The position numbers were made by a program, and so were the translations under genes. Of a stretch of 64,000 nt of DNA, positions 6,921 through 64,000 are shown piece by piece. Below the pieces are notes generated by a model. The model made no database searches. It saw nothing but the letters and a program-made list of their open reading frames with translations, and had not been told where the DNA came from. Each line of letters starts with the position of its first letter. The first letter of the stretch is position 1. Source of the stretch: an uncultured Bacilli bacterium (GTDB lineage Bacteria > Bacillota_I > Bacilli_A > RF39 > UBA660); contig CANRQG010000001.1 of the NCBI GenBank assembly GCA_947632735.1, positions 3,903 to 67,902 on the forward strand. The letters run 5' to 3'.

Positions 6921-9025
6921 TCTGAAATAACGAAGTTATAAGTAACCCCATTGCAACTTGTTACCTCGCTGCCAAATGTTATACAGTTACTAGGCGAATT
7001 ATCGTGACATCCTACAATTGAACCAGTACTCATACCAGTTTCCTTTTCCCCAACAATATTTACCTTAACACCTGGATAATTTTCCTCGAAGAACTTTTGA
7101 TAAATAGACTTTGCTTTTTCAAAAGAAGCGCTACCACCTATCTCATTAAGTACATTATTTAATCTTCTATCAATTTTATCGGTCATTTTTACACAAGGCT
7201 TCTCTTCTTCTTTACTACTACCACTACTGCTACTAGAACCACTAGAACTACTACTAGAGCTACCAGAACTACCAGGATTCTTTCCCTTACTAATAGTAAT
7301 CGTAATTGTCGTATTAGCTGATATTTCACTACCAGCACTAATTGATTGACTAATTACCGCATTCTCTTTAACAGAATTACTATACTTGTAAACAAACGAA
7401 TACTTTAAACCTAACTTATCTAATTTTTCCTCTGCTTGACTCTTCGTAAGACCATCTAAAGCTGGTACCTTAACTGCCTCTCCATCCGAAATAGTAACAA
7501 TAACAACATCATCATTCTTAATGACATCGCCTGTCTTATAAGAATAGCTTATTATTTCACCAATTTTAACAGTGCTACTAAATTCGTGCTTCTCTTCATA
7601 TTTTATTTCATACTTATCAGCCCATTCTCTAAACTCCTCATAAGAATTAAACTTCGGCATTTTTAAATTGCCCTTAGAAATAACTATCTTAATCGTCTCA
7701 CCCTGTTCTACTTTATCTCCCTTTTTGTAGTTAGCACTTATAACACTATTAGCTTTAACCTTTTCATCATACTTATCACTAAATTCTAATTTTAATCTAT
7801 TTTCTATTATCCATTCAGTAATCTCACTTACCTTCATCTTCATTAAATCAGGTACTTCAATCTCCTTACCCTTACTAAAAGTAACCTTAACCTTTTCATC
7901 GTCGATTTTAACACTACTTCCCGGCTTTTTATCCTGCTTCATTGCCAAGTTTCTCTTAATTTTCTCTGAAAAATCTCGGTCAAACTCATAATTAAGATGA
8001 TGCTGTTTCATATAAAACATAACTTCAAATTCCGTTTTATTTGTAAAATCAATTAACTTAACTTCTTCATAACCCAATTCTTCTCCATATGAGAATGTTA
8101 TCTTTAACTCTTCATCCCTTTTCAAATTACCAGCTTTACTTTGCTCAATTACCGTATCAACGGCCTTATCTGATTCCACAAATTCTACAGAAACATTTGA
8201 TAAATAATTTTTATTAACAAAATCTATAACCCTTTCAGTATCCCAAGAAACCATATTCGGAATTATAATCTCCTTACTAGGATTTGGTCCTTCACTAACA
8301 ACAACAGTTAATTCCTTTACTTTCTTAAGACTAGTCCCAGCCTCAACATCTTGAGTAATTATTTCATACTCATCAACCATATCACTATACTCATATTCCT
8401 GCTTTAAAGTTATTTTATTTTTTTCTGCCCATTTCACTACCTCGGTCAAATTTTCATTAGAAAAATCCTTCATTCCCGTCTTAACCGTAGCCTCACTACC
8501 ATTAAGACTTGTATAAATGCCTAAAGTAAAATAAAGACCTAATAATAAAGAAGCAAAAAATACTACTACCTTATTTCTACTCTTAAGTCCGATAGGAACA
8601 AAAAACAACGTAAATAGTATTATCAAAAGTAAACTACCTACATTTATAATATCTAACTCATCCTTATTTAAATATAAATGAAGTAAAAAGAAACCAACCC
8701 CTAAAAGTAAAACAAAACACAAGAAAAAGTTTACAAAAATACGACTTCCTTTTTTAGTCTCCATATGTTTATCCTCTTTAACATTATTTACTTCTTCTTT
8801 TATAACTTTATTCTTACCTGAAGACTTTTTTTCCACAAATTCTGTTGATAATTCATTTTCATCAAAAATATCTTTTTCTTTTTCCACCGGTTTATCTAAC
8901 TCTTTTTCCTTAGAAACATCTTCTAAAGCTGCCTTTTTCTTTTTACCACTATTTTTCTTACTTCTATATTCCGTTTGTCTAACCACATCGGTATTTTTCT
9001 TTTTTGCCAACTTTAACACCTCCAT
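6917..9025 (-). CDS. Membrane-anchored PASTA-repeat protein. Lys-rich cytoplasmic N-terminus, one TM, four to five PASTA-like domains, poly-Ser linker and an unknown Cys-containing C-terminal domain. No kinase or transpeptidase domain.
   Basis: Repeated ~65-aa units ending ...G..V..G..I.IxISKG (e.g. VKANSVISANYKKGDKVEQGETIKIVISKGN) typical of PASTA. TM segment FVNFFLCFVLLLGVGFFLLHLYL. Ser/Gly tract SSGSSSSSSSGSSSSSGSS. Confidence 0.5.
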   Translation of the reverse strand: MEVLKLAKKKNTDVVRQTEYRSKKNSGKKKKAALEDVSKEKELDKPVEKEKDIFDENELSTEFVEKKSSGKNKVIKEEVNNVKEDKHMETKKGSRIFVNFFLCFVLLLGVGFFLLHLYLNKDELDIINVGSLLLIILFTLFFVPIGLKSRNKVVVFFASLLLGLYFTLGIYTSLNGSEATVKTGMKDFSNENLTEVVKWAEKNKITLKQEYEYSDMVDEYEIITQDVEAGTSLKKVKELTVVVSEGPNPSKEIIIPNMVSWDTERVIDFVNKNYLSNVSVEFVESDKAVDTVIEQSKAGNLKRDEELKITFSYGEELGYEEVKLIDFTNKTEFEVMFYMKQHHLNYEFDRDFSEKIKRNLAMKQDKKPGSSVKIDDEKVKVTFSKGKEIEVPDLMKMKVSEITEWIIENRLKLEFSDKYDEKVKANSVISANYKKGDKVEQGETIKIVISKGNLKMPKFNSYEEFREWADKYEIKYEEKHEFSSTVKIGEIISYSYKTGDVIKNDDVVIVTISDGEAVKVPALDGLTKSQAEEKLDKLGLKYSFVYKYSNSVKENAVISQSISAGSEISANTTITITISKGKNPGSSGSSSSSSSGSSSSSGSSKEEEKPCVKMTDKIDRRLNNVLNEIGGSASFEKAKSIYQKFFEENYPGVKVNIVGEKETGMSTGSIVGCHDNSPSNCITFGSEVTSCNGVTYNFVISE

Positions 9026-9248
9026 TATTATTTAATTATATAATAAATAAAGAAAAATATAAATAATTACTCTCTGTGCCATTGTAAAAATATGTCTATT
9101 TACTTCGAAAAAAGCTAAGTATTCGAAAAAATTACTCCTGCTAAGCAAAAAATTAACTTTTCTAAAAATAAAACCCAACTTTATTTTACTAATAGTCTAT
9201 CTTCTGTTATAATTAAATAAGAAAAAGAGAGAAAGAGGAATAGAAAAA

Positions 9249-11552
9249 ATGGAAAATATAAAAAAAAATATAAATATTTTAGTTGCGAGCTTTTTACTTT
9301 TTCAGCCTCTGCTAGATTTAGTAACAGGTCTTAATATTCATATTCTTAATTTTCCTATCACTATAGGAATAATATTAAAATTTTTATTTATGCTTAGCTT
9401 AGCCTTAATTTGCTTAATCGTTTATAAAAAGAAAAAATTACTAATACCTTATACAATTATAGGTCTTTACTTTGTCTTTTTCCTTATTGGTAAAATAATC
9501 TATCCCACTAATTTATTTAAAGAAGCTCAAGAATTAATAAAAATCTTTTACTTTCCTATTATCTTGATTACTCTTTATTCTATAAAAGATGAAATTAAAA
9601 TTAGTAAGATGACACTTTTTACTATGCTAATGACTTACTTAGTTTGCATCTTTATACCAACCATCTTCCACGCCGGTTATAAAACTTATGAAATAACTAA
9701 AGCTGGTACTTTAGGCTTTTACAATTCCGCAAATGAAATAAGTGGCATTATTTCTTTACTTACACCTATAATGTTTATTATTCTTTTAAAAAAGAAAAAT
9801 ATCTTTTCTTTATTAGGTTTAATTCTCTATCTAGCTGTTATTTTAATGATGGGAACCAAAACACCACTTTTAGTTCTTATAATAACGATATTCTTCTCCC
9901 TAATTTACTTATGGGTAAAAAGTATTCGTGAAAAGACTTATAAAATAATTGGTATTTCTCTTATTGTCTTAACCATTTTCTCCTTAGCTTTAGTCTTCAT
10001 AGTTCCTAAAAGCAATTTTTATAAAAATATAAAAACTCACTTAGATTATCTAGAATTAGATAATGTCTTTGAAGTCTTTGAAGAAGAAAAATTTGTTGAC
10101 CACTTTATTTTTAGTGAACGCCTTACTTTCTTAGCTAGAAAAAATAAAGTTTATGACAAAGCTCCATTATATCAAAAAATATTTGGAATAGGTGCTTATC
10201 AAAAAAATAAAAAATTAAAAATGATTGAAATGGATTATTTTGATATTTTATATTCTAATGGTTTAATTGGCTTCATAATCTTTTTCAGTATCTTCTTATA
10301 TGTAATTATTAAAGTCTTAAGAAATAGCCTTAAAATCAATTATCAAAGTTATATGCTATACTTAAGCTTTGCCTTTATTATCCTGTTAAGCTTTTTTACA
10401 GGTCATATTATAACTGGACCATCAGTAAGTCTTTTATCCGCTATAATTATTCTTTCCCTAAATAAAAGAAAGAAAAAAGACCTACTATTTGCGGGTGTTA
10501 ATCTAGAAATAGGGGGTATTGAAAAAGCCCAAATAAATTTATTAGACAATATTAATTATAAAAAATATAACGTTACTTTAGTCTTAGAAGAAAAAAAAGG
10601 CAAGCTCTTAAAAGACCTAAATAAAAATGTTACTCTAAGAGAAGTAAAAGTAAGTACTAATAATCATTTTTTAGTAAGAAAAATAGCCAATTATTTACGT
10701 AAATTAATTTTTGAAATCTATAGTTATCAAAATTATGATTTTAGTTGTTGTTACACAACATATAGCTATAGTTCTAACAAGTTAGCAAAAATATCTTCAT
10801 CTAATAATGCCTTATATGTCCATAGTAATTATAAAGATGTCTATGATACTGATGAAGAAGTACAAGAATTTTTTGACTCAAGAAAAGTTGCCGACTTTAA
10901 CCATATTATTTTTGTTTCCAATGAAGCAGCTACTTACTTTTTAAGTCTATATCCAAGTTTAAAAGATAAAGTAAAAGTCTTTAATAATTTTATTAATACT
11001 AAAAAAATAATCGAAGATAGCTTAAAAGAAATAAATCTTTCTCATCCTAAAGATAAAAAATTATTAGTATTTGTAGGTAGACTTGATGACTCATCAAAAA
11101 AATTAGCTCGAGCAATTAACTTAGTTAAACAATTAAATGATATTGAATTATGGATAATAGGCTCTGGTCCTGATGAAAATATGTATCAAGATTTAGTTAA
11201 AAAATTAAACTTAACAGAAAAAATTGCTTTTCTAGGTCCTAAGTCTAATCCTTATCCTTATATGAATGAAGCCGATTACTTACTTTTAACTTCTGATTAT
11301 GAAGGTTTCCCAGTTGTTTACCTAGAGGGTATTACTTTAAAAAAGCCTTTCATTACTACAATTGATGTTAGTGATGAAGAAATAAATATCGGTAAAGATT
11401 ATGCTTATATTATTCCTAAAGATGAAGACAAAATGGTTAAAGAAGTAAAAAAGATTTTAACTAAAAAGAAAAAAATTAAAGAAATTAATCTTGATAAAAT
11501 TCAAAAGCAAAGAATAAAAAAACTAGAGCACATTTTTGATGAGGTGGTTTAA
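9249..11552 (+). CDS. Fusion protein: multi-TM Wzy/O-antigen-ligase-like polymerase domain (N-terminus) plus a family-4 (GT-B) glycosyltransferase domain (C-terminus)
   Basis: About 400 aa of 10+ hydrophobic helices, then NLEIGGIEKA...EGFPVVYLEGI, typical of the GT4 EX7E region. Confidence 0.5.
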   Translation: MENIKKNINILVASFLLFQPLLDLVTGLNIHILNFPITIGIILKFLFMLSLALICLIVYKKKKLLIPYTIIGLYFVFFLIGKIIYPTNLFKEAQELIKIFYFPIILITLYSIKDEIKISKMTLFTMLMTYLVCIFIPTIFHAGYKTYEITKAGTLGFYNSANEISGIISLLTPIMFIILLKKKNIFSLLGLILYLAVILMMGTKTPLLVLIITIFFSLIYLWVKSIREKTYKIIGISLIVLTIFSLALVFIVPKSNFYKNIKTHLDYLELDNVFEVFEEEKFVDHFIFSERLTFLARKNKVYDKAPLYQKIFGIGAYQKNKKLKMIEMDYFDILYSNGLIGFIIFFSIFLYVIIKVLRNSLKINYQSYMLYLSFAFIILLSFFTGHIITGPSVSLLSAIIILSLNKRKKKDLLFAGVNLEIGGIEKAQINLLDNINYKKYNVTLVLEEKKGKLLKDLNKNVTLREVKVSTNNHFLVRKIANYLRKLIFEIYSYQNYDFSCCYTTYSYSSNKLAKISSSNNALYVHSNYKDVYDTDEEVQEFFDSRKVADFNHIIFVSNEAATYFLSLYPSLKDKVKVFNNFINTKKIIEDSLKEINLSHPKDKKLLVFVGRLDDSSKKLARAINLVKQLNDIELWIIGSGPDENMYQDLVKKLNLTEKIAFLGPKSNPYPYMNEADYLLLTSDYEGFPVVYLEGITLKKPFITTIDVSDEEINIGKDYAYIIPKDEDKMVKEVKKILTKKKKIKEINLDKIQKQRIKKLEHIFDEVV

Positions 11553-13436: not shown

Positions 13437-14381
13437 ATGCAAAAAAATGATATAAGTATAATTGTTCCAATTTATAATGCTGAAAAAACTATCGAAAGAT
13501 GTTTAAATTCTTTACTATCTCAAACAAAAAAAGAACTAGAATTTATTCTTATAAATGATGGTTCAACTGATGAAACAGAAAAAATAATTAAAAACTTTTC
13601 TGATAAAAGAATAAAATATTTTAAAAATAAAAATCAGGGAATAGGTAAGAGTAGAAATTTTGGCTTAGCACAAGCAACTGGTAAATATATATTATTCGTT
13701 GATAGTGATGATTATATTGCTAAAGATATGTGTGAAAAATTATTTGAAAAATGTGAAAATAATAATCTAGATATTTGTATATGCGATTATTACAAAGAAT
13801 TTGAAGATGGTTCTAAAGAAAAAGTTTTCTTAGGAGACTTTTCTATTTCTTCTTTAAAAGAAAATCCTGATATTATAACTGAGCATTTAAATCCCTGGGC
13901 TAAACTATATAATAGAAAAATGCTAATAGATAATAAAATTAAGTTTGTTGAAAACTTAAAATACGAAGATGCTCCTTTTGTAATTGAAGCTTTTTGTTGT
14001 GCTAAAAGAATAGGCAAAGTAAATGAATTTTTAAGCTATTATCTGGTTCATAATAATAGTGAAACAACAATAAGAGATGAAAGATGCTTTGATATATTAA
14101 AAATAGTTGCTAAAATAAGAAAGTATACTAAAGATAAAACTTATCTAAAAGAAAAAATAGATAAATTAACAGTTAGAATTATTACTAATTATACTATTCA
14201 ACAAAGAATGCAAACTGATAAAAAATTAGCTCGAAAATTTATTGATGAAGCATTTACTTATTTAAAAAAAGAAATTCCTAACTATAAAAATAATAAATAT
14301 TATGAAAATAGAGGCTTCTTACGAAGAAGTATTGAAAAAAACAAAACATTAACACAAATTTATTGTAGTTTATATAGATAA
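13437..14381 (+). CDS. Family-2 glycosyltransferase
   Basis: ISIIVPIYNAEKTI...INDGSTD...VDSDD. Confidence 0.7.
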   Translation: MQKNDISIIVPIYNAEKTIERCLNSLLSQTKKELEFILINDGSTDETEKIIKNFSDKRIKYFKNKNQGIGKSRNFGLAQATGKYILFVDSDDYIAKDMCEKLFEKCENNNLDICICDYYKEFEDGSKEKVFLGDFSISSLKENPDIITEHLNPWAKLYNRKMLIDNKIKFVENLKYEDAPFVIEAFCCAKRIGKVNEFLSYYLVHNNSETTIRDERCFDILKIVAKIRKYTKDKTYLKEKIDKLTVRIITNYTIQQRMQTDKKLARKFIDEAFTYLKKEIPNYKNNKYYENRGFLRRSIEKNKTLTQIYCSLYR

Positions 14382-14425
14382 AATATGATAAAATAAAAGA
14401 CGATGTAGAATTAATGTAGTATGAG

Positions 14426-15466
14426 GTGAATGATGTGTTTTTAGTCTCAATTGATATAGAATATAGATATAACATAATAAATAAAATAAAAAAATCTAAT
14501 AAAAATATTAAAACATCTATTTTTACAATTGATAATATCAATTACTATAATTATAAAAAATATGATTACGTTATTACTCAGTATAATCCAAAATTAATTG
14601 ACTATTTTCTTAAACTTGGTAAAAAGATAGTTATATGTTCTTTTGATGAAGAATTAATAAAAGAAGAATACAGAAATAATTCTAAAATATTTATATGTAA
14701 CACTAAAAAAGAAGTAATCGATTTTGTTTTAACTGAATACACTGCGAATAATTATCAAAATAATAAAGTATATAAATGTCTAAAAGCCTTTATATATCTA
14801 GCAATATTTCTCGTTTTTGCTTTTTTCCTTTATAAAAGACTCTATGTCTGTAAAGGAGCGCCTACTAGTAAAAAAGTCTCAAATGAAATAGATTTAAAAA
14901 AAGAAAATTATGTCTTTTTGGGTGATTCAATAACTGATTATTATAATTTAGATAAATACTATGGTGACCTACCTGTTGTTAATAGCGGAATAAGTGGTAA
15001 CGAATATCACGATTTATTAGATAACTTGGACCAACGAGTTTTCAAATATAACCCAACTAAAGTCTTCATTTTAATAGGTACAAACGATATTGCTTATACA
15101 GATGTTAGTAATGAAGAATTAACCGATAAGATTATCGAAATTTGTGATAAAATTCAAGAAGAAAGGTCTAAAACAGAAATATATGTTGAGTCAATTTATC
15201 CTGTAAATAAAAATATGGATAATAATGGTATGGTTTCTAAAAGAACTAATTCCCGAATAAGAAAAGTAAACAAACTATTAGAAGAAAAAGTTAAAGAAAA
15301 TAATTATAAATATATAGATATGTATGATATCTTAAAAGATTCTGAAGGTAATCTAAACCCAAGATACACTTATGATGGCTTGCATATTTCAGAAGATGGT
15401 TATAAAGAAATAACTAAAGAAATAAAAAAGATAATATATAATGGTAGCGAAGGAAAGGAATGTTAA
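14426..15466 (+). CDS. Membrane-anchored SGNH/GDSL hydrolase-like protein (possible polysaccharide O-acetyl esterase or transferase partner)
   Basis: TM helix, then FLGDSITD (Ser block), GTNDI, DGLHISEDGY (DxxH block). GTG start. Confidence 0.55.
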   Translation: MNDVFLVSIDIEYRYNIINKIKKSNKNIKTSIFTIDNINYYNYKKYDYVITQYNPKLIDYFLKLGKKIVICSFDEELIKEEYRNNSKIFICNTKKEVIDFVLTEYTANNYQNNKVYKCLKAFIYLAIFLVFAFFLYKRLYVCKGAPTSKKVSNEIDLKKENYVFLGDSITDYYNLDKYYGDLPVVNSGISGNEYHDLLDNLDQRVFKYNPTKVFILIGTNDIAYTDVSNEELTDKIIEICDKIQEERSKTEIYVESIYPVNKNMDNNGMVSKRTNSRIRKVNKLLEEKVKENNYKYIDMYDILKDSEGNLNPRYTYDGLHISEDGYKEITKEIKKIIYNGSEGKEC

Positions 15467-57574: not shown

Positions 57575-58804
57575 ATGAAAGATATAGAAAAACTAGTAAA
57601 TGACAGTGAAAAAATGTGTTTAGAGCAATTTCAAAAAATCGATGATATATGCTTTTATAATAGTAAAAAAGTTCTTGCTAGTTTTAAGAAAAATAATGTT
57701 ACCGAAAGTGCCTTTAATGAAACAACTGGATATGGCTATAACGATTTAGGAAGAGATATAATAGAAAAAGTTTTTAAAGATGTTTTGGGTGCCGAAGATG
57801 CTTTAGTAAGAAATCAATTTATCTCTGGAAGTCACGCTCTTAACGTCTGCTTTTTCGCTCTTTTGCGTCCTAATGACTTACTACTAAGTATTACTGGTAA
57901 GCCCTACGATACACTCGATGAAGTAATTGGTATAAGAGAAAATGCTAGTTCCTTAAAAAGTTTTGGTGTCAAATACAAAGAAATAGATTTAATAAATGAT
58001 GACTTTAACTATGAAGAAATAAAAAAAGTTTTAACTACTGAAAAAGTAAAAGTAATAGAAATACAACGTAGTAAAGGATATTCCACTAGAAAAAGTATTT
58101 CCCTAACCAAGCTAGAAAAAGTTATATCCTTTATCAAAAATATTTCTCCAGATGTTATTATTATGGTTGACAACTGTTACTGTGAATTTGTTACTACTAA
58201 AGAACCTACCGAAGTAGGAGCTGATATTATGGTTGGCTCATTAATTAAAAACCTAGGTGGTGGCATAGCTTCAAATGGAGCCTATATAGCTGGTAAAACT
58301 GACTTAATCACCCTTTGTGCCGAACGTTTAACCTTACCAGGTGAGGGTAGAGAAGTTGGTCCATCACTTGGTGCTAACAAACAAATTTTACAGGGCTTAT
58401 ATTTTGCTCCATCCGTAGTCGCCGCTGCCTTAAAAACAGCCGTTTTAACATCTAAAGTAATGGAAGAATTAAATTACGAAGTTGAACCTAAATTTTCTGA
58501 GGATAGAATCGATATCGTCCAAAATATCATTTTTAAAGATAAAGATAAATTAATAGAATTTACAAGAGGCATTCAAAATGGTTCTGCCATTGATTCAAAT
58601 GCCCTTGTCGAAGCATCAGCTATGCCCGGTTATGATGACGATATTATAATGGCCAGTGGCTCATTTACCCAGGGCTCATCTATCGAATTATCCTGTGATG
58701 GCCCTATAAGAGAACCATATATTGCCTATATGCAAGGTTCCTTGACCTATCCGTATGGCAAGTTAGGTCTAATAACGGCCTTAAAAAGATTACTAACTAA
58801 ATAA
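57575..58804 (+). CDS. Methionine gamma-lyase family protein (YnbB / 'aluminium-resistance' PLP-dependent family)
   Basis: N-terminal ...CFYNSKKVL...NETTGYGYNDLGRD... is characteristic of the Met_gamma_lyase family. Confidence 0.65.
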   Translation: MKDIEKLVNDSEKMCLEQFQKIDDICFYNSKKVLASFKKNNVTESAFNETTGYGYNDLGRDIIEKVFKDVLGAEDALVRNQFISGSHALNVCFFALLRPNDLLLSITGKPYDTLDEVIGIRENASSLKSFGVKYKEIDLINDDFNYEEIKKVLTTEKVKVIEIQRSKGYSTRKSISLTKLEKVISFIKNISPDVIIMVDNCYCEFVTTKEPTEVGADIMVGSLIKNLGGGIASNGAYIAGKTDLITLCAERLTLPGEGREVGPSLGANKQILQGLYFAPSVVAAALKTAVLTSKVMEELNYEVEPKFSEDRIDIVQNIIFKDKDKLIEFTRGIQNGSAIDSNALVEASAMPGYDDDIIMASGSFTQGSSIELSCDGPIREPYIAYMQGSLTYPYGKLGLITALKRLLTK

Positions 58805-58858
58805 TAAATGTAATATATCAAAAACTTCTTCATATAATTAAATGAATGGAGGAGTCGT

Positions 58859-59365
58859 ATGATAAATAAACAAAATTTATGGTTTTTAACATTATTTACA
58901 TTAATATTAGTCCTTAGTATTTACTATGTAACAATGCCCAATGATTTATTAGTAGAAGCCATAAAAAAAGAACCAAAAACAGAAACTAAAGCCGAAGCCA
59001 AAGATACTATTGAAGAAGTATCCAGTTTAGTCGCAATGCGAGTTAGCCTAGAAGAAGAAAGACAAACCGTAATGGACGAGCTACAAGAAAAGTTAACAAA
59101 TGATGAAACAACTAGTGAAGAAAAAAATAACGCTTATGAACAACTAAAATACCTAAATGAAGTTCAGGGAAAAGAAGAAGCAATTGAAAAGAAAATAAAA
59201 AAAGAATATAATCTTGATTGCTTTGTCAAAATAGACAATAATAATGCCAATTGTGTTTGTGTATCATCAAAGCACGACAATACCTTAGCAAATAACATCA
59301 TGCGTCTTATACAAGAAAATTATAAAAATAAAATGTACACAACCGTTAAATTCCAAAAATCTTAA
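58859..59365 (+). CDS. SpoIIIAH-like protein
   Basis: N-terminus MINKQNLWFLTLFTLILVLSIYYV resembles B. subtilis SpoIIIAH MLKKQTVWLLTML...LSVYYI. Acidic linker and C-terminal domain. Confidence 0.45.
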   Translation: MINKQNLWFLTLFTLILVLSIYYVTMPNDLLVEAIKKEPKTETKAEAKDTIEEVSSLVAMRVSLEEERQTVMDELQEKLTNDETTSEEKNNAYEQLKYLNEVQGKEEAIEKKIKKEYNLDCFVKIDNNNANCVCVSSKHDNTLANNIMRLIQENYKNKMYTTVKFQKS

Positions 59366-59427
59366 AATAGGTAAAAACATACAACTAATTTTTAACTTTT
59401 CATACAATACTTTAGGTGATAAGAAAA

Positions 59428-59634
59428 ATGGCAAATAATATATTAACGCCTCGTGAACGAAAAATCTTTGAGCTTTTAATAGATAATATGAGTACAAAAC
59501 AAATAGCTTTAGAACTAGGTATTAGTGAAAAGACGGTTCGTAATCATATATCAAACGTTATGCAAAAACTTGGAGTTAATGGTCGAGCAGGAGCTGTTGT
59601 TGAATTGTTAAAACTTAAAGAATTATCCATCTAA
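59428..59634 (+). CDS. gerE: GerE-like LuxR-type HTH transcriptional regulator
   Basis: LTPRERKIFELL...TKQIALELGISEKTVRNHISNVMQKLGVNGRAGAVVELLKL; near-identical motif string to B. subtilis GerE (ISEKTVRNHISNAMQKLGV). Confidence 0.75.
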   Translation: MANNILTPRERKIFELLIDNMSTKQIALELGISEKTVRNHISNVMQKLGVNGRAGAVVELLKLKELSI

Positions 59635-59662
59635 AACGTACTAAAAAAGTGCGTTTTTTCAT
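59635..59662 (+). terminator. Rho-independent terminator after gerE
   Basis: AACGTAC-taaaaaa-GTGCGTT with a T6 run. Confidence 0.45.
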
Positions 59663-59682
59663 ATACTTTTTTAGGTGATAAA

Positions 59683-60627
59683 ATGCTTAGAACAAGAGCC
59701 TTAAAAAAAATATTCATAACAACACTTTCAATGTTTATTTTATTAACTGTTTTTTCTTTACCAACATTTAAAAAAGAAACTGTTTTAAGGACAAATCTTG
59801 AAGTAGAAGAAAAAACTACTCTAAAAACCAATAGTATCTATCTATTAAATAAAGATAATTATTTAGTAAAAACCAAAATATTTATAGAAGCAACTGATAA
59901 AGAAGATAAGATTAGAGAAATCCTTAATAATTTAATTATAAAAAAAAATAATAAATTACCAACTGGCTTAAGTGGCACTATTCCAAGTGAAACTACTGTT
60001 CAAGAAGTAATTGTTAATAAGGATATAGTTACTATTGATTTTTCTAAAGAAATATTAAAAGTACAAGAATCTTTAGAAAAGCAAATGATTACTTCAATAG
60101 TTTATAGTCTTTTAGAATTAAAAGACCTAAAAGGTGTAATTGTTCTAGTTAATGGTAATACATTACTAGAATATCCTAATTCTAAAGAAAAGCTTCCATC
60201 TATCTTAGATAAGAAAATTGGTATTAATAATAAATATTTATTAACATCCCGGGATAATATCTCTAAAGTTGTTATCTATTACTTAGAAGATATAGAAGAA
60301 AATCTTTACTACGTGCCTGTTACAAAATACATAAATGATAACCGTGACAAGATAAAAATTATAATTGAAGAGTTAACTACCAATTATATTTATGAGCCTA
60401 ATCTTATGAGTTTTTTAGATAATAAAGTTGAACTACTTGATTATCACGAAGAAAATGATGTCTTATTTCTAAACTTCAATGATTATTTATATAATAGTAA
60501 AGATAAAATTTTAGAAGAAGTTTTATATAGTATTGCTTATTCTGTCTTTGACAATTATAACGTTAATATGGTTATGTTTGAAGTTAATGAAAAAGAAGTA
60601 AAATATATTTCAAAAAAAGACATTTAA
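59683..60627 (+). CDS. GerM-like protein with two GerMN domains (sporulation/germination)
   Basis: Signal/lipoprotein-like N-terminus. Segment ...IREILNNLI...LPTGLSGTIPSETTVQEVIVNKDIVTIDFSKE fits the GerMN pattern. Confidence 0.45.
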   Translation: MLRTRALKKIFITTLSMFILLTVFSLPTFKKETVLRTNLEVEEKTTLKTNSIYLLNKDNYLVKTKIFIEATDKEDKIREILNNLIIKKNNKLPTGLSGTIPSETTVQEVIVNKDIVTIDFSKEILKVQESLEKQMITSIVYSLLELKDLKGVIVLVNGNTLLEYPNSKEKLPSILDKKIGINNKYLLTSRDNISKVVIYYLEDIEENLYYVPVTKYINDNRDKIKIIIEELTTNYIYEPNLMSFLDNKVELLDYHEENDVLFLNFNDYLYNSKDKILEEVLYSIAYSVFDNYNVNMVMFEVNEKEVKYISKKDI

Positions 60628-60668
60628 AAAACGTACTCTATCGTGAAGTACGTTTCTATTTTTTACTT
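60628..60668 (+). terminator. Rho-independent terminator
   Basis: AAACGTACT-ctatcgtga-AGTACGTTT then ctatttttt. Confidence 0.55.
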
Positions 60669-60692
60669 GAATTTTTTCAAGTATAAATCATA

Positions 60693-60769
60693 TGGTGTCC
60701 GCGAGGCGACTCGAACGCCTGACCGATCGCTTAGAAGGCGATTGCTCTATCCAGCTGAGCTACGCAGAC
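60693..60769 (-). tRNA. tRNA-Arg (anticodon UCU)
   Basis: The reverse complement GTCTGCGTAGCTCAGCTGGATAGAGCAATCGCCTTCTAAGCGATCGGTCAGGCGTTCGAGTCGCCTCGCGGACACCA folds as a cloverleaf. Acceptor stem GUCUGCG/CGCGGAC, anticodon loop CUUCUAA, encoded CCA. A consensus promoter TTGAAA-17-TATAAT lies on the minus strand at about 60792-60820. Confidence 0.85.
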
Positions 60770-60871
60770 ATATTTCAACTGACAACTAGAATTATACAAT
60801 AAAAAAGCTTATATTTCAAGTGCTTTCAAACAAATAAAGCATTTTTCTTGTAAAAAATGCTTTATCCTAAG

Positions 60872-60929
60872 TATTATTTTGTTTGTGTTTTTTCTTAGTC
60901 TTTATCAATATCACGCAATTATTGATTTA
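60872..60929. repeat. Copy A of a ~55-bp imperfect direct repeat (ttattttgtttg ... agtctttatca ... tatcacgc ... ttgatt)
   Basis: Directly comparable with copy B at 63243-63306; blocks of 12, 11, 8 and 6 identical nt in the same order. Confidence 0.6.
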
Positions 60930-60937
60930 TGTCTATT

Positions 60938-61627
60938 TTAAACTTCAATGTCAACGCCATTCATAGCGTCATATATTTCAGCAGATTTCTCACTAAATTT
61001 GAAAACTCTACCATAACCATAGTAAGAGAAAGTGTAATCTTGACTATCTACTAACCAAGCTGTTTTCATAGCGTGTTGGTAGCTAGCGTAAACGTGACCA
61101 CCCATTGCTACTCTATAAGTTTGTGTCAATTTCATATCACTCGCATCGTGTAATTTAAAGGAACAGCCAAGTCCATTACTTTCTTTTTTGTATTCATCAA
61201 TTAAAGAAGATTCAACACTTGATTCTATGACTGTAAAAGGAGAGTTTTTTAAAGTAGTATTTTCAAAATAAGCGCCCATAACATCATAAGATCTAACAGT
61301 TGGAAGACCTTTCCACTCATAGTAAACATTTATCAAACAGTTTGATGAACAAGATTTAGCAATACTAAGTATTCTACCAGAATCTTCAATAAAGTCGCCT
61401 CTTGTAAGATTTGGTTTGAATTCCACAACTTTCTTTTCAACTGGATGAGAGAAAATATCATCACTTTTTAAATCATCATATAACTCTTTAGTGACATATT
61501 TTTGAAAGCCTTCATAGTACATTTCTGAGATAAAATCATATTCTTTTTTAGTTAAACTTACACCATTTTCATTTGTGTAATATTTTTCTTCTGCCAAGAC
61601 AAATGTTGGAATAATTAAAATAGACAT
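60938..61627 (-). CDS. Secreted hypothetical protein (229 aa)
   Basis: Short N-terminal signal-like segment, several Cys, no recognised motif. Co-oriented with and downstream of the HTH-membrane gene. Confidence 0.35.
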   Translation of the reverse strand: MSILIIPTFVLAEEKYYTNENGVSLTKKEYDFISEMYYEGFQKYVTKELYDDLKSDDIFSHPVEKKVVEFKPNLTRGDFIEDSGRILSIAKSCSSNCLINVYYEWKGLPTVRSYDVMGAYFENTTLKNSPFTVIESSVESSLIDEYKKESNGLGCSFKLHDASDMKLTQTYRVAMGGHVYASYQHAMKTAWLVDSQDYTFSYYGYGRVFKFSEKSAEIYDAMNGVDIEV

Positions 61628-61733
61628 TAAAATTAAAAAACATAAATTTCTCTTTTTTATCTAAAATCCCTCCTTTCTATTATAATTGTATCAAACTTTT
61701 AAAAATTAAAGGTAGAACTTAACAAGTTCTACC

Positions 61734-63077
61734 TCACTCAATAAAGATTTCTAGGTATTTAAATATTATGTCAGCTAAGATTTGATAGTTTTCACTTTTA
61801 TTAGCAAAATCGCTATCACTTATAATAATTTCATTTTTTAAATCATCGTTTTCATAAATATTTAACAAGATTATATTTGAATTTAGTTTCCAATTGCATT
61901 CATAAACAAATTCATTTTGAATTGCATAAATATTTAATGTATTATTTTTCTCAAAGAAACTTATATTTACCTCAGCACCATTACTTAAATAATTTTTTGT
62001 ATAAACTTTAATAAAGCTATTATCCTCCAAAGTAAAATTCTTCTTAATCATCTTTATTAATAAATCTTTATTTTCTAAATAACCTAAAATTTTCTCATAA
62101 TTGTCTTTCGTTTTTGAATCATCTTTTTTATTTGTAACTTCTACATTGTCTTCACTTTCATTTTTATTAGCATTCTCATTATCAGTAATAATATTACTAT
62201 CTTTTATTGTTGATTTTTCTTTTGACTTTTCTTCCTTCTCTTCCTTTTCACTACTTTTCTCCTCAGAATTATCGCTTTTTTCTTTAATTTTTCCAACAGC
62301 ATTCCCTAAATGATTATTATCCATAAGGAATTTTAACTTTGAAGAGAAAATAGAATTGTTTGAAAAATAATTAGTTACTTTTAAGTGTAATTTTTCTTTT
62401 TCGTCATCATTATATATTATCTCTAAATAAAGACTATCTTTTAATTTATCTACTTCATTAAATTTAAAATACAAATTATAACCGTAATAATCAATAAGTA
62501 AAAAGTCACTATCTTTAGTAGAATAAATTAAATTACTTTTGCCATTTTTTGAATAATACAAATTTAACTTTTTAATTTTCACATTTTTGTCATCATAAAC
62601 TAGTTTACCAGATTGAAAATAAATTTTTTGCTTAGTTACAATCAAAATACCATTAGATTGTGAGAAAATTTTTCCTTTACTATTAACATTATAAAACTTT
62701 ATTGAATTATATGAATTTATAAAATAGTATATAAAGAAAAATAAAATTAATAAAACTGCAACAACAATATTTATCAAAATCATATTTCTTATTTTTTTGC
62801 TTTTCGAAATATTTTCATCAACCATTTTCAAAGTAACTTCTTTTAATTTTTCAGGTGTCTTTTCATTTTTTCTTTCACCAGTTAAAAGTTCATCAACAGT
62901 AACATCAAATATTTTGCTAAGAATTACTAAAGTAGAAGAATCTGGTATAGAAATTGCACATTCCCATTTACTAACTGCTTGTCTAGAAATAGGAATCATT
63001 TTTGCTAGTTGATATTGACTTAAATTTTTCTCAGTTCTTAATTGCTTTATAAATTGACCTGTTTTACCTGCATCCAT
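61734..63077 (-). CDS. Membrane-tethered XRE-family HTH regulator: cytoplasmic HTH, one TM, large extracellular domain with an acidic/Lys-rich low-complexity linker
   Basis: N-terminal FIKQLRTEKNLSQYQLAKMIPISRQAVSKWE HTH_3, then the IVVAVLLILFFFIYYFI TM, then ~330 aa extracytoplasmic. Confidence 0.55.
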   Translation of the reverse strand: MDAGKTGQFIKQLRTEKNLSQYQLAKMIPISRQAVSKWECAISIPDSSTLVILSKIFDVTVDELLTGERKNEKTPEKLKEVTLKMVDENISKSKKIRNMILINIVVAVLLILFFFIYYFINSYNSIKFYNVNSKGKIFSQSNGILIVTKQKIYFQSGKLVYDDKNVKIKKLNLYYSKNGKSNLIYSTKDSDFLLIDYYGYNLYFKFNEVDKLKDSLYLEIIYNDDEKEKLHLKVTNYFSNNSIFSSKLKFLMDNNHLGNAVGKIKEKSDNSEEKSSEKEEKEEKSKEKSTIKDSNIITDNENANKNESEDNVEVTNKKDDSKTKDNYEKILGYLENKDLLIKMIKKNFTLEDNSFIKVYTKNYLSNGAEVNISFFEKNNTLNIYAIQNEFVYECNWKLNSNIILLNIYENDDLKNEIIISDSDFANKSENYQILADIIFKYLEIFIE

Positions 63078-63203
63078 AATATTTTTTCACCTCCTTCTTA
63101 TTCTTAAATAATTATAACATTTTTTGTTAATTTATAGAATACAAATATAAACATATTTTAGCTCTAAAACAACAAAAAAACCGAAAAAAGTTTTCAGTTT
63201 TCA

Positions 63204-63361
63204 TTGTTCTTTATGGCAAAATATGGTAATATGTAATTGGGATTTATTTTGTTTGAAAATTTGTTTTTTTCAATAAGTCTTTATCATATATCACGCGTTT
63301 GATTAAGAATTAAAAAATAAAATAAAATCCTAAAGGGAAGACACAAATCTTCCTTTTTTTT
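63204..63361 (+). ncRNA. Candidate short transcript or leader: promoter (TTGTTC, 18-nt spacer, TGgTAATAT), repeat copy B, intrinsic terminator (GGGAAGA-cacaaa-TCTTCC-T9)
   Basis: Promoter and terminator are both readable on the + strand about 130 nt apart with no ORF between them. Could be an sRNA or a terminator/attenuator in the leader of the exporter gene. Confidence 0.3.
63243..63306. repeat. Copy B of the ~55-bp direct repeat
   Basis: See copy A. Confidence 0.6.
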
Positions 63362-63444
63362 GCAATTTTTTACAATTTTTTGCAAAAAAAATAAAAATTT
63401 GTCAAAATAATGGAAATAATATAAATGGAGGTGAGAGAAACAGC

Positions 63445-64000
63445 TTGGCGATAAAAATAGTTTTGCAAGATGGTATTAAAGATTGTGGCATCTGTTGTTT
63501 ACTATCTATCATTAGATACTATGGGGGAGATGTATCTAAAGAATATTTAAGAGAAATAACAGACACTACCAAGGATGGAGTTTCATTATATCAACTGTTA
63601 AATGGTGCTTCAAAATTAGGCTTTACTGCTACTGGCGTGAAAGGTGAAATAACAAAAATAAATGCAAATAACTTACCCTGCATTGCCCACGTAATAGTAA
63701 ATAAAAATTATAAACACTTTGTAGTGATATATAAAATTGACTCAAAAAATAAGCAAGTTACTTTAATGGACCCTGCAAAGGGTAAAAAAATAATCTCTTT
63801 TTCTGAATTTAATCTATTATCGAGTGGTCATTTCCTTTTCCTAACACCAACCAAAAAACTACCGATAATAAAAAGAAAAAGAATTTTATTAAAAATAATC
63901 ATAAATGCTTTGAAGACAAGTCATATTAAAGCAATAATATTTATAAATTTAACTATAATATACTTTATTTTAGTTATAGTCACTTCTTTCCACTTCAAAT
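63445..64000 (+). CDS. ABC-type bacteriocin/peptide exporter, N-terminal C39 peptidase domain (partial, continues beyond the window)
   Basis: TTG start after RBS ggaggtga. QDGIKDCGICCLLSIIRYYG...ITKINANNLPCIAHV is the double-glycine-leader peptidase C39 signature with catalytic Cys. Confidence 0.75.
   Translation, partial: MAIKIVLQDGIKDCGICCLLSIIRYYGGDVSKEYLREITDTTKDGVSLYQLLNGASKLGFTATGVKGEITKINANNLPCIAHVIVNKNYKHFVVIYKIDSKNKQVTLMDPAKGKKIISFSEFNLLSSGHFLFLTPTKKLPIIKRKRILLKIIINALKTSHIKAIIFINLTIIYFILVIVTSFHFK

What the first reader, a model, noticed from the sequence alone, without database searches (positions are those of the whole stretch)
60872..63306. ~55-bp imperfect direct repeats bracket a two-gene cassette next to tRNA-Arg and a bacteriocin-type exporter
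- Copy A (60872-60929) and copy B (63243-63306) share ordered identical blocks (ttattttgtttg / agtctttatca / tatcacgc / ttgatt).
- They flank the minus-strand cassette encoding a membrane-tethered XRE regulator and a secreted protein.
- Copy A sits just upstream of the tRNA-Arg promoter.
- Copy B lies inside a promoter-to-terminator unit (63204-63361) preceding the C39 ABC exporter. That leader also carries a 10-bp-stem palindrome (ttttttgcaa…ttgcaaaaaa, 63355-63389) and a second promoter (TTGTCA 63399-63404).
- Possible readings: insertion footprint of a small island at a tRNA-proximal site, a shared regulator-binding region, or a small RNA gene with a pseudo-copy.
Basis: seen in the sequence. 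Interest (0 to 1): 0.5.

Follow-up and report, generated by a model that had tools for sequence, protein, structure and literature searches.

The report
Small RNA matching neighbour operon's tail
The two repeats are real and kept by selection: one forms the body of a conserved ~120-nt small RNA gene, and the other sits in the 3' untranslated tail of the neighbouring regulator operon on the opposite strand, so the two RNAs should pair, which looks like a local antisense control loop rather than an island insertion scar.

Summary
The repeat is real. Its alignment score is 49, against 24.7±3.5 for shuffles and at most 46 for 3000 real segment pairs.

It is not an insertion footprint. The two-gene cassette encodes a membrane-tethered XRE regulator and a secreted beta-sandwich protein (SEC). 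The cassette and both repeat copies are present in every relative recovered whose contig reaches those positions, although the proteins are only 45-70% identical. There is no recombinase, no tRNA-derived att site and no compositional anomaly.

Copy B is the body of a promoter-to-terminator unit at 63204-63361 (+). That unit is ~90% identical between species, while its flanks are 31-57% identical. It has no conserved ORF and no Rfam match.

Copy A always lies between the SEC stop codon and the operon terminator, on the minus strand. The two transcripts would therefore be complementary over ~60 nt. The predicted net binding energy is -17 to -27 kcal/mol in four lineages. The only GC-rich hexamers, UCACGC and GCGUGA, fall in predicted hairpin loops. 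The A and B tails co-evolve within lineages (best of 120 permutations).

Best reading (0.45): a new small RNA that pairs with the 3'UTR of the divergent XRE-SEC operon. The principle is that of the par DRa/DRb repeats. Main rival (0.25): paired DNA operators for the XRE protein. No expression or binding data exist.

The parts
63204..63232 (+). Promoter of the small RNA: TTGTTC (63204-63209), 17-nt spacer, extended -10 TGgTAATAT (63224-63232)
   Evidence: Read. The same TTGTT(C/A)-17-TGnTAxxAT architecture appears in L014, L005, L042, L043 and L010. This stretch is 76-78% identical between species, against 31-57% for the XRE-proximal intergenic DNA. The -35 matches the consensus at only 3 of 6 positions, so the generic scan did not list it.
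63239..63332 (+). Body of the putative ~120-nt small RNA; contains repeat copy B (63243-63306)
   Evidence: ~90% identical between window, L014 and L005. The RNAalifold consensus has a 17-bp closing stem plus an internal hairpin. The MFE z-score is -3.9. Covariance model R1 finds it in window, L005, L014, L042 and L043 only. There is no conserved ORF and no Rfam family.
63287..63299 (+). 13-nt apical loop UAUAUCACGCGUU carrying the GC-rich hexamer UCACGC (63291-63296); proposed nucleation site
   Evidence: The loop is present in the MFE and the consensus folds. ATCACGCGTT is invariant in all five copy-B lineages; the first loop positions vary.
63333..63361 (+). Intrinsic terminator of the small RNA (GGGAAGA-cacaaa-TCTTCC followed by T8)
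   Evidence: Seen and folded. The stem is kept in L014 and L005 with a different loop, and replaced by GAGGA/TCCTC in L042.
63111..63119 (-). Likely extended -10 (TGTTATAAT) of the XRE-SEC operon promoter, about 40 nt upstream of the ATG; copy B lies upstream of it and so is not in this mRNA
   Evidence: Read. TGnTATAAT lies at the same relative position in L042, L043 and L010. This is inference from sequence only.
61734..63077 (-). XRE-TM: membrane-tethered HTH_3 regulator (447 aa). It has an HTH at residues 1-66, a TM helix, an extracellular beta domain, a disordered K/E/S linker and a C-terminal alpha/beta domain
   Evidence: Pfam HTH_3, E=4e-13. Only the HTH matches solved structures (C-proteins, P22 c2, SinR, ImmR). 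More than 270 homologues were found.
60938..61660 (-). SEC: secreted beta-sandwich protein of unknown function. The listed ORF is 60938-61627. Relatives start 11 codons earlier, where the window has ATA (61660-61658) 7 nt after GGAGGG
   Evidence: ORF. There is no Pfam family. The AF2 model has pLDDT 90, with only weak beta-sandwich adhesin or pilin matches (TM<=0.35). It is always paired with XRE-TM in all 28 genome loci recovered.
60872..60929 (-). Repeat copy A, transcribed as the 3'UTR of the XRE-SEC mRNA. GCGUGA (60916-60911) sits in a predicted hairpin loop (AUCAAUA / UAUUGAU stem)
   Evidence: Folds are. Copy A lies between the stop codon and the terminator in window, L005, L014, L043, L050 and L010. 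Mean pairwise identity across lineages is 75%, against 56% for the adjacent DNA and 58% for shuffles. It is the best duplex target of the small RNA in the 64 kb, at -44.8 kcal/mol against a background of -13.9±4.
60836..60863 (-). Intrinsic terminator hairpin of the XRE-SEC operon (AAAGCAUUUUU...AAAAAUGCUUU), immediately 3' of copy A
   Evidence: Folded. Analogous hairpins with different sequences occur in every lineage.
60693..60769 (-). tRNA-Arg(tct). This is context only. Its own promoter is TTGAAA-17-TATAAT at 60819-60791
   Evidence: ARAGORN, Rfam and the promoter scan. The gene is in the opposite orientation in L005, L010 and L014.
63445..64000 (+). Start of the C39-peptidase ABC exporter (context). 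Downstream, beyond the window, lie an accessory protein, two double-glycine-leader peptides, and then rpsU and yqeY
   Evidence: Pfam Peptidase_C39, E=6e-35. The rest comes from L001, a contig whose overlap with the window was compared only at the repeat copies and the XRE-TM/SEC proteins, which are identical.

Best explanation
Copy B is the core of a previously undescribed ~120-nt small RNA gene. It has an extended -10 promoter, a structured non-coding body and an intrinsic terminator, and it is transcribed divergently from the operon that encodes a membrane-tethered XRE regulator and its secreted partner protein (SEC). Copy A is a homologous ~55-70-nt segment kept in that operon's 3'UTR, between the SEC stop codon and the operon terminator.

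The two DNA direct repeats are transcribed in opposite directions, so the two RNAs are complementary.

Inferred mechanism. Contact starts between the GC-rich loop UCACGC(G) of the small RNA and the loop (U)GCGUGA of the 3'UTR hairpin. Pairing then spreads over ~60 nt and opens the small RNA's closing stem. The resulting duplex, just upstream of the protective terminator hairpin, is expected to be a substrate for a double-strand-specific RNase. That would lower the XRE-SEC mRNA level, as RatA does for txpA and SR4 does for bsrG. It could also titrate the small RNA.

What is shown: the repeat, its conservation, its position, the conserved promoter and terminator, the predicted structures, the complementarity and the co-evolution. 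What is inferred: that both RNAs are made, that they pair in vivo, and what the pairing does.
For: 1. The repeat is significant.

2. The copy-B unit behaves like an RNA gene.
- The body is ~90% identical between species whose XRE proteins are 52-54% identical, while the flanks are 31-57% identical.
- The promoter and terminator are conserved, and the terminator stem is replaced compensatorily in L042.
- The fold z-score is -3.9.
- There is no conserved ORF.
- In L042 the unit is followed by other genes rather than the ABC exporter, so it travels with XRE-SEC.

3. Copy A lies inside the 3'UTR, before the terminator, in all 6 lineages where that region is available. It is conserved above background: 75% against 56-58%.

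4. Complementarity.
- Copy A is the best target of the small RNA in the 64 kb, at -44.8 kcal/mol against -13.9±4.
- The cofold net ddG is -17 to -27 kcal/mol in four lineages, against -0.5 to -4 for shuffled controls.

5. GCGUGA is in a predicted hairpin loop in window, L005 and L043, but not in L014 or L010. UCACGC is in a 13-nt loop of the small RNA.

6. The L043-type copy A changed its stem sequence to AUAAGUCAAA/UUUGACUUAU but kept a hairpin. L051 carries an A-to-G change in that stem that is G.U-compatible. L045 and L047 carry GCGUGG, which is still G.U-compatible with the small RNA.

7. The A and B tails share lineage-specific indels and substitutions. The true lineage pairing is the best of 120 permutations by both alignment score and duplex energy.

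8. Precedents.
- Pairing at 3' ends drives RNase III-dependent decay in txpA/RatA (PMC4147584).
- The SR4 RNA promotes degradation of bsrG mRNA (PMC3834814).
Against: - There are no expression data. The promoter's -35 is weak (3 of 6) and the transcripts are inferred only.
- Complementarity follows automatically from any direct repeat transcribed in opposite directions, so the duplex energies are not independent evidence.
- Co-evolution of A and B could reflect gene conversion.
- In L043-type lineages the central heptamers of copy A differ from copy B by A/T transversions that break core pairing. About 7 of 20 pairs are lost.
- L014's 3'UTR hairpin is not predicted.
- L010's copy B core has diverged (ACTCGGGAAAC), so the system is not uniform.
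- The core contains tandem heptamers (TGATAWA TGATAAA) that could equally be protein-binding sites.
- Only five to six lineages are available, and the small RNA is too conserved to show real covariation. The only pairs predicted to change on both sides are 2 of 40, and both are in the terminator.
Confidence: 0.45

Rival explanations
1. Both copies are DNA operators for the membrane-tethered XRE regulator encoded between them, or for another DNA-binding protein. One site lies in the divergent promoter region and one at the end of its own operon, about 2.4 kb apart. They would allow cooperative binding or looping, as phage lambda CI does between OL and OR around cI-rexAB (from my own knowledge, not checked here). 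The outcome would be autoregulation of the operon and of the neighbouring transcription unit.
For: - A Cro/CI-type HTH_3 domain is encoded between the sites. Its fold matches P22 c2, C-proteins, SinR and ImmR.
- The core is a tandem heptamer: TGATATA TGATAAA in the window and TGATAAA TGATAAA in L042 and L043. It is preceded by an invariant GCG. From my own knowledge, SinR-type XRE proteins bind 7-mers in various orientations.
- GCGTGA is the most conserved element in all copy A and copy B sequences except L010's copy B and the GCGTGG variant in L045/L047.
- The spacing of 2379 bp is close to the lambda OL-OR distance.
Against: - Conservation of copy B is not focal. The whole 95-nt body is about 90% conserved, including the 3' third that is absent from copy A, together with a promoter and a terminator.
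- The heptamers are poorly kept in A copies: TGAATTT TGATTTT in L043, TGAATAT CGATAAA in L014, and a one-base deletion in window and L005.
- There is no dyad symmetry.
- Matched lineage-specific indels in the low-complexity tails are not expected for operators.
- Distant XRE-SEC modules keep invariant HTH residues (Q21, R32, Q33, S36, W38, E39). By inspection, with no formal motif search, I saw no such motif or repeat pair near them.
- An operator at +40 to +60 inside a 120-nt gene would be unusual.
Confidence: 0.25
2. The copy-B unit is not a free-standing small RNA. It is the 5' leader and attenuator of the bacteriocin ABC-exporter operon. The 3'UTR of the XRE-SEC mRNA (copy A) would be the trans-acting partner, pairing with the nascent leader to change termination at 63333-63361. 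That would couple exporter and bacteriocin expression to XRE-SEC transcription.
For: - In window and L014 no convincing promoter lies between the terminator and the ABC start codon. The candidate TTGTCA has a 15-nt spacer, and this region is only 56% conserved.
- The unit is directly upstream of and co-oriented with the ABC operon in window, L008, L045, L047 and L014.
- From my own knowledge, antisense-driven attenuation is known for plasmids such as pT181 and pIP501.
Against: - In L042 the same unit is followed by unrelated genes with their own TTGACA promoter.
- In L005 an IS1595 separates it from the ABC exporter.
- No alternative antiterminator pairing was found, and the terminator stays intact in the predicted heterodimer.
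Confidence: 0.12
3. Copy A is a functionless relic of an old segmental duplication or insertion event. It stays similar to the selected copy B only through occasional gene conversion. This covers the first reader's 'footprint' reading.
For: - The A and B tails show concerted evolution, which gene conversion would produce.
- The XRE-SEC module sits in different genomic contexts in distant lineages, so it has moved during evolution.
Against: - There is no recombinase, no tRNA-derived att site and no compositional anomaly, and the cassette was present in every relative recovered.
- A-type and B-type signatures are each orthologously conserved across lineages: AATAAT(T)GCGTGA for A against AATCAAACGCGTGA for B. 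The copies have therefore been kept distinct, not homogenised.
- The longest identical runs are 12-20 nt, which is short for RecA-dependent conversion (my own knowledge).
- Copy A is conserved above its neighbours.
- Copy A changes preserve a hairpin.
Confidence: 0.1

Closest known systems
par (Fst) type I toxin-antitoxin locus of Enterococcus faecalis pAD1: RNA I / RNA II with direct repeats DRa and DRb
   Same: DNA direct repeats are transcribed in opposite directions, which gives complementary RNA segments. The interaction is proposed to begin at complementary hairpin loops and then spread. The interaction sequences vary between homologues while the partners still match (PMC7472228, PMC4147584).
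   Different: par is a compact convergent pair that shares a bidirectional terminator. Its repeats sit at the 5' ends and mask the toxin's ribosome-binding site, and the target encodes a ~33-aa toxin. Here the genes are divergent and the repeats are 2.4 kb apart. The target site is a 3'UTR of a regulator plus secreted-protein operon. No small toxin ORF is conserved.
txpA/RatA and bsrG/SR4 of Bacillus subtilis (antisense RNAs acting at mRNA 3' ends)
   Same: RatA pairs with the 3' end of the txpA mRNA, and RNase III-dependent decay follows. SR4 promotes bsrG mRNA degradation, and its contact with the target starts loop-to-loop (PMC4147584, PMC3834814). This is the outcome I infer here.
   Different: txpA/RatA is cis-encoded on converging, overlapping transcripts, so its complementarity is perfect (PMC4147584). 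As far as I know the same holds for bsrG/SR4. Here the small RNA is encoded 2.4 kb from its target, and complementarity comes from a diverged duplication (about 80% over ~55 nt, with indels).
Phage lambda CI with operators OL and OR flanking cI-rexA-rexB (DNA looping by a Cro/CI-type repressor)
   Same: An HTH_3-type regulator operon is bracketed by two related DNA sites about 2.3-2.4 kb apart. This is the model behind the main rival explanation (my own knowledge).
   Different: Lambda operators are 17-bp dyads present in triplets and overlapping promoters. Here each copy is a 55-70-bp non-palindromic segment. One copy lies inside a transcribed non-coding unit and the other inside a 3'UTR. No binding has been tested.
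tRNA-linked genomic islands or integrative elements bounded by att direct repeats
   Same: Direct repeats bracket a gene cassette next to a tRNA gene.
   Different: There is no integrase. The repeat is not derived from the tRNA. The cassette and the repeats are ancient and were present in all relatives recovered. The tRNA orientation differs between lineages.
Transmembrane one-component transcription regulators (TTRs)
   Same: XRE-TM has a cytoplasmic DNA-binding domain, one TM helix and extracytoplasmic domains, which is the general architecture described for TTRs (PMC10269533).
   Different: That paper does not mention XRE or HTH_3 (0 occurrences). No TTR that I know of is coupled to a divergent small RNA complementary to its own 3'UTR.

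Membership tests
tRNA-linked genomic island / integrative element with attL-attR | Integrase or other site-specific recombinase within or next to the bracketed segment | tested here: not met
   Only two genes lie between the repeats: HTH_3-TM and a protein with no Pfam family. The neighbours are GerM, the tRNA and the C39 ABC exporter.
tRNA-linked genomic island / integrative element with attL-attR | Direct repeat derived from the tRNA gene (usually its 3' end) | tested here: not met
   Copy A is more than 100 nt from the tRNA and is separated from it by a terminator and the tRNA promoter. Neither copy contains tRNA sequence. The tRNA is inverted in L005, L010 and L014 relative to the window.
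tRNA-linked genomic island / integrative element with attL-attR | Presence/absence polymorphism among relatives; atypical composition | tested here: not met
   The cassette was present in every relative recovered from this clade, across lineages whose proteins are 45-70% identical. Both repeat copies are seen wherever the contig reaches both positions. Relatives were recovered by homology to the cassette proteins, so an empty site could not have been found. GC is 21-31% inside the cassette and 23-33% outside. There are no phage matches.
Independent bacterial small RNA gene | Conserved promoter and intrinsic terminator bounding a short non-coding, structured sequence | tested here: met
   See for conservation and architecture, for the fold (z = -3.9), for the covariance-model hits in 5 lineages, and for the absence of a conserved ORF.
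Independent bacterial small RNA gene | Detected transcript of the predicted size | not testable with these tools
   No transcriptome data are available. All source organisms are uncultured gut MAGs.
Any described RNA family (Rfam 15) | Match to a curated covariance model | tested here: not met
   An E-value-mode cmscan of 58000-64000 returned only the tRNA.
par-like / type I toxin-antitoxin antisense pair | Two RNAs made from opposite strands across direct repeats, giving complementarity well above background | tested here: inconclusive
   The geometry and complementarity are met: duplex energy is -44.8 kcal/mol against -13.9±4, and ddG is -17 to -27 kcal/mol. Partner co-evolution is met. Transcription of both strands is inferred only.
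par-like / type I toxin-antitoxin antisense pair | Small hydrophobic toxin ORF as target; convergent genes sharing a terminator | tested here: not met
   There is no conserved small ORF in or around the unit. The genes are divergent and 2.4 kb apart, and each has its own terminator.
Operator pair of a Cro/CI (XRE) regulator | HTH_3 regulator encoded at the locus | tested here: met
   Pfam HTH_3, E=4e-13. Structural matches to P22 c2, SinR and C-proteins.
Operator pair of a Cro/CI (XRE) regulator | Symmetric or tandem half-sites conserved in both copies; same motif at orthologous promoters | tested here: inconclusive
   Tandem heptamers are clear in B copies but degenerate in A copies. No dyad is present. 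By inspection, with no formal motif search, no shared motif was seen upstream of 24 distant orthologues.
Operator pair of a Cro/CI (XRE) regulator | Specific protein-DNA binding | not testable with these tools
   This requires EMSA or footprinting.
Quorum-regulated class II bacteriocin promoters (LytTR response-regulator repeats) | Histidine kinase and LytTR regulator genes in the locus; about 9-bp repeats 12 bp apart upstream of each operon | tested here: not met
   No kinase or LytTR gene lies between the tRNA-Arg and rpsU. The repeated unit is 55-70 bp and occurs once at each end of the XRE-SEC operon.

The most novel reading that the evidence does not exclude
The locus could be a new kind of self-contained signalling module in uncultured gut Bacilli. 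A membrane-tethered XRE sensor and its secreted partner protein form strain-specific matched alleles. These would be wired by RNA rather than by a kinase cascade. A divergent small RNA and the operon's own 3'UTR would titrate each other, and in the window lineage the same small RNA unit would double as the leader that gates read-through into the bacteriocin exporter operon. Bacteriocin export would then be set by an RNA-RNA comparison of sensor-operon output against leader output.
Probability: 0.12. Interest if true: 0.7.

Novelty: new variant of a known kind. Interest (0 to 1): 0.42.

Why it matters
If the pairing is real, this is a clean natural case of a chromosomal regulator operon controlled through its 3'UTR by a neighbouring small RNA. 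The complementarity would come from a maintained DNA direct repeat. To my knowledge that principle has so far been documented mainly for the par family of type I toxin-antitoxin loci.

It would also add a new small RNA family with no Rfam model, found in uncultured, AT-rich gut Bacilli.

It sits beside a bacteriocin export locus and inside a module whose sensor domain and secreted partner are hypervariable between strains. It could therefore explain how strain-specific signalling is connected to bacteriocin production without a two-component system.

If the sites are instead DNA operators, the locus would be an example of long-range operator pairing by a membrane-anchored XRE regulator.

Either way, the finding removes a false lead, namely the idea of a tRNA-linked island.

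Tried and rejected
- **The repeat finder.** The ungapped search missed the A/B pair. A gapped local alignment was needed.
- **Rfam.** It returned only the tRNA.
- **Metagenome scan 1.** The invariant 23-mer TATCACGCGTTTGATTAAGAATT gave 0 hits.
- **Metagenome scan 2.** GTCTTTATCAN{3,4}ATCACGCG gave 61 hits, mostly soil contigs. That is about the chance expectation, and none matched covariance model R1. The clade is therefore absent from that collection.
- **Viral contigs and phage genomes.** No match.
- **Covariance model R1 against 28 more distant XRE-SEC loci.** No homologue of the small RNA was found, and copy A is not hit on either strand. The idea that copy A is a second or pseudo small RNA gene is rejected.
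- **Analogous upstream/downstream repeats in 24 distant XRE-SEC modules.** None was convincing. L020 and L025 gave only low-complexity AT matches.
- **Shared operator upstream of distant XRE genes.** Nothing was recognisable on inspection.
- **Small ORF or peptide in the small RNA.** Frames and lengths are not conserved.
- **Function of SEC and the XRE ectodomains from structure.** There were only weak generic beta-sandwich hits for SEC, and only HTH hits for XRE-TM.
- **cre and Fur-box resemblance of the core.** Considered by eye and rejected because the consensus match is poor.
- **Strain-level recombination break points at the repeats.** Rejected. The divergent segment runs from XRE residue ~352 to SEC residue ~171, not from repeat to repeat.

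Full report
**1. The observation**

A gapped local alignment of the two intergenic regions joins 60874-60916 to 63244-63296. The exact blocks are TTATTTTGTTTG and AGTCTTTATCA[T]ATATCACGC, and the score is 49.
- Dinucleotide shuffles give 24.7±3.5, and 0 of 1000 reach 49.
- Of 3000 random pairs of real segments from the same AT-rich window (28% GC), none reaches 49 and the maximum is 46.
- The 20/21-nt core occurs nowhere else in the 64 kb.
- The 12-mer on its own is unremarkable.

- tRNA-Arg(tct) lies at 60693-60769 on the minus strand.
- A 229-aa protein with no Pfam family lies at 60938-61627 on the minus strand. I call it SEC.
- A 447-aa protein with an HTH_3 domain and a TM helix lies at 61734-63077 on the minus strand. 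I call it XRE-TM.
- A C39-peptidase ABC exporter starts at 63445 on the plus strand.

**2. Wider context**

Contigs carrying the identical SEC protein, with identical repeat copies and XRE-TM, extend past the window (L001-L004). They show the following gene order:
- the ABC exporter;
- a 138-aa accessory protein;
- a 54-aa double-glycine-leader peptide;
- a second double-glycine-leader peptide;
- rpsU and yqeY.

The window therefore ends in a class II bacteriocin export locus. The organism is an uncultured, spore-forming gut member of the Bacilli. SpoIIIAH, GerE and GerM lie just upstream, and the related MAGs come from rabbit and human gut.

**3. Comparative evidence against an insertion footprint**

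Homologues of XRE-TM and SEC, together with a genome scan using a SEC alignment, recovered the locus in several other lineages.

| Lineage (loci) | XRE-TM identity to window | SEC identity to window |
|---|---|---|
| L008, L045, L047 (same species) | 89% (L008 allele) | 86-88% |
| L005 | 52% | ~68% |
| L014 | 54% | 63% |
| L042/L050, L043, L044, L051 | 50-55% | 67-69% |
| L010 | 45% | 70% |

A further 25 genome loci belong to more distant lineages.
- The XRE-TM + SEC pair is found together in all 28 genome loci. It is an old two-gene module, not a recent cargo.
- Repeat copies are present in window, L005 and L014, with A-versus-B alignment z-scores of 8.5-10.7, and more weakly in L010 (z = 4.1). 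L043 has both copies. L042 has B, and L050 from the same lineage has A. L051 has A.
- No recombinase gene is present.
- The repeat carries no tRNA sequence.
- GC content is not anomalous.
- The tRNA gene, with its own promoter, is in the opposite orientation in L005, L010 and L014.
- No phage or viral contig matches.

I reject the island-footprint reading. One limit remains. Relatives were recovered through the cassette proteins themselves, so I could not have found a relative with an empty site.

**4. What copy B is**

The XRE-ABC intergenic regions of window, L014 and L005 were aligned and conservation measured segment by segment.

| Segment (window coordinates) | Identity between lineages |
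|---|---|
| XRE-proximal part | 31-57% |
| 63201-63237 (promoter) | 76-78% |
| 63238-63332 (body) | ~90% |
| Terminator and downstream | 24-68% |

Other features of the unit:
- The conserved block starts with TTGTT(C/A), a 17-nt spacer and TGnTAxxAT. This is an extended -10 promoter on the plus strand, seen in six lineages.
- The block ends with an intrinsic terminator. Its stem is kept in L014 and L005, and it is replaced compensatorily in L042, where GGAAGA/UCUUCC becomes GAGGA/UCCUC.
- The RNA folds better than shuffles, with z = -3.9.
- The consensus structure has a 17-bp closing stem, an internal hairpin with the 13-nt loop UAUAUCACGCGUU, and then the terminator.
- No ORF is conserved, and Rfam has no matching family.
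- A covariance model built from four lineages finds the unit only in this clade. It does not hit copy A on either strand.
- In L042 the unit is followed by unrelated genes, and in L005 an IS1595 separates it from the ABC gene. The unit therefore belongs with XRE-SEC, not with the exporter.

I conclude that copy B is the body of a small RNA gene of about 120 nt. I infer this from sequence, and no transcript has been observed.

**5. What copy A is**

- In every lineage where the region is available, copy A lies between the SEC stop codon and the operon's terminator hairpin. It is therefore inside the 3'UTR of the minus-strand mRNA.
- Its core is 75% identical on average between lineages. The adjacent terminator region is 56% identical and shuffles give 58%. 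Copy A is therefore maintained by selection.
- The XRE promoter appears to be a proximal TGTTATAAT at 63119-63111. Copy B would then lie outside the XRE mRNA.

**6. Relation between the two copies**

The repeats are direct on the DNA but are transcribed in opposite directions, so the RNAs are complementary.
- Copy A is the best duplex partner of the small RNA in the 64 kb, apart from the small RNA's own antisense strand. The energy is -44.8 kcal/mol, against a background of -13.9±4 and a next-best site of -30.
- With both RNAs allowed to fold fully, heterodimer formation is still favoured by -17 to -27 kcal/mol in four lineages. Shuffled partners give -0.5 to -4 kcal/mol. Both terminators stay intact in the predicted dimer.
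- The only GC-rich hexamers in these ~22% GC RNAs are UCACGC in the small RNA and GCGUGA in the 3'UTR. The first sits in the 13-nt apical loop. The second sits in a predicted hairpin loop in window, L005 and L043. This is the classic geometry for a kissing-loop start.
- Copy A of L043, L050 and L051 has a different stem sequence (AUAAGUCAAA/UUUGACUUAU) but still forms a hairpin around GCGUGA.
- L051 has an A-to-G change in that stem that keeps pairing as G.U.
- The window-species variants L045 and L047 have GCGUGG, which still pairs with the small RNA as G.U.
- The A-rich tails of A and B share lineage-specific states: CAAACAAAAU in both window copies, AAACAAAAC in both L014 copies, and an extra AUCCAAAC segment in both L043 copies.
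- Over five lineages, the true A-B pairing gives the best total of all 120 permutations, by alignment score and by duplex energy.
- Own-lineage duplexes are the best or equal best in the full-length comparison as well.

**7. Best explanation and its limits**

I think the most likely reading is an antisense pair created by a maintained direct repeat. A divergently transcribed small RNA would pair with the 3'UTR of the XRE-SEC mRNA just upstream of its protective terminator hairpin. Two precedents exist.
- The expected outcome is duplex-dependent decay of the mRNA, as for txpA/RatA and bsrG/SR4 (PMC4147584, PMC3834814).

Against this reading:
- There are no expression data.
- Complementarity is automatic for such a geometry.
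- Concerted evolution could be gene conversion.
- L043-type A copies lose central pairing through A/T transversions.
- L014's 3'UTR hairpin is not predicted.
- L010's copy B core has diverged.
- The small RNA is too conserved to give real covariation.

**8. Rival explanations**

(a) DNA operators for XRE-TM.
- The protein has a Cro/CI-type HTH whose fold matches P22 c2, SinR and C-proteins.
- The core contains tandem heptamers preceded by an invariant GCG.
- The 2.4-kb spacing recalls lambda OL-OR.
- Against it: the conservation is gene-like rather than focal, the heptamers are degenerate in A copies, there is no dyad, and I saw no similar motif by inspection at 24 distant orthologous promoters although the HTH residues are invariant.

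(b) The unit is the attenuating leader of the ABC operon, and the 3'UTR acts on it in trans.
- This is plausible in window and L014, where no good promoter lies between the terminator and the ABC start.
- It does not fit L042 or L005.

(c) Copy A is a functionless relic kept similar by gene conversion.
- It is disfavoured because A-type and B-type signatures are each orthologously conserved and copy A is conserved above background.

**9. Novelty and score**

- The small RNA has no Rfam family and occurs only in uncultured gut Bacilli.
- The mechanism class is known.
- The arrangement is a new variant: a chromosomal regulator operon whose 3'UTR matches a divergent neighbouring small RNA through a 2.4-kb-spaced direct repeat.
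- Everything rests on sequence analysis, so I score interest at about 0.4.

Noticed in passing
window 60938-61450 (SEC codons ~61-171) and 61800-62025 (XRE-TM residues ~352-425); compared with L045, L047, L008: Between strains whose flanks are 99-100% identical, the middle of SEC and the last beta-sheet domain of XRE-TM are only 87-90% identical at the nucleotide level. dS is 0.2-0.4 and dN/dS is 0.2-0.6. The HTH, the TM helix and all intergenic DNA, including both repeats, are essentially unchanged. This looks like matched, pherotype-like alleles of a sensor ectodomain and its secreted partner. The break points are not at the repeats.
   Followed up: partly
window 60693-60819 vs L005:10268-10344, L010:2597-2673, L014:10868-10944: The tRNA-Arg(tct) gene, together with its TTGAAA-17-TATAAT promoter, is inverted in the window lineage relative to three related lineages. 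There it is convergent with SEC instead of co-directional.
   Followed up: partly
window 61625-61673 (minus strand): Orthologues of SEC start with ATG followed by a K-rich signal-peptide n-region (MKKNL...). In the window the equivalent codon is ATA (61660-61658), 7 nt after a GGAGGG ribosome-binding site. The next ATG (61627) would give a protein without a proper signal peptide. This is either a rare ATA start or a start-codon mutation.
   Followed up: partly
L001:905-1065 (minus strand of L001; downstream of the window): A second double-glycine-leader peptide (…ENLDDEKLEQITGG|TSTISGTILNAFKG…CPLE) follows the 54-aa bacteriocin precursor. It has no ATG, GTG or TTG start after the preceding stop codon. 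An ATA lies at the expected position, so this is a second possible ATA start in the locus.
   Followed up: no
L005:6381-7436: An IS1595-family transposase is inserted between the small RNA terminator and the ABC exporter in one related lineage. It uncouples the two.
   Followed up: no
window 63343-63402: The palindrome TTTTTTGCAA-N14-TTGCAAAAAA lies downstream of the small RNA terminator. L014 has a different short palindrome (TTTTTTCGAAAAAA) at the same place. Its function is unknown, and the sequence is not conserved.
   Followed up: partly
L028:846-2780 and 8754-10714; L018:10001-10684 and 14329-15174: Some distant genomes carry two XRE-TM/SEC modules (L028) or a second SEC paralogue (L018) within 10 kb. 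This suggests that the module family expands by duplication.
   Followed up: no
window 61734-63077 (XRE-TM residues 242-322): A ~80-residue K/E/S/N-rich segment predicted to be disordered (pLDDT below 50) links the two extracellular domains. It is specific to the long-form (437-462 aa) clade that also carries the repeats. The widespread 379-aa form is shorter, and its match to the window protein covers only the N-terminal ~55%.
   Followed up: no
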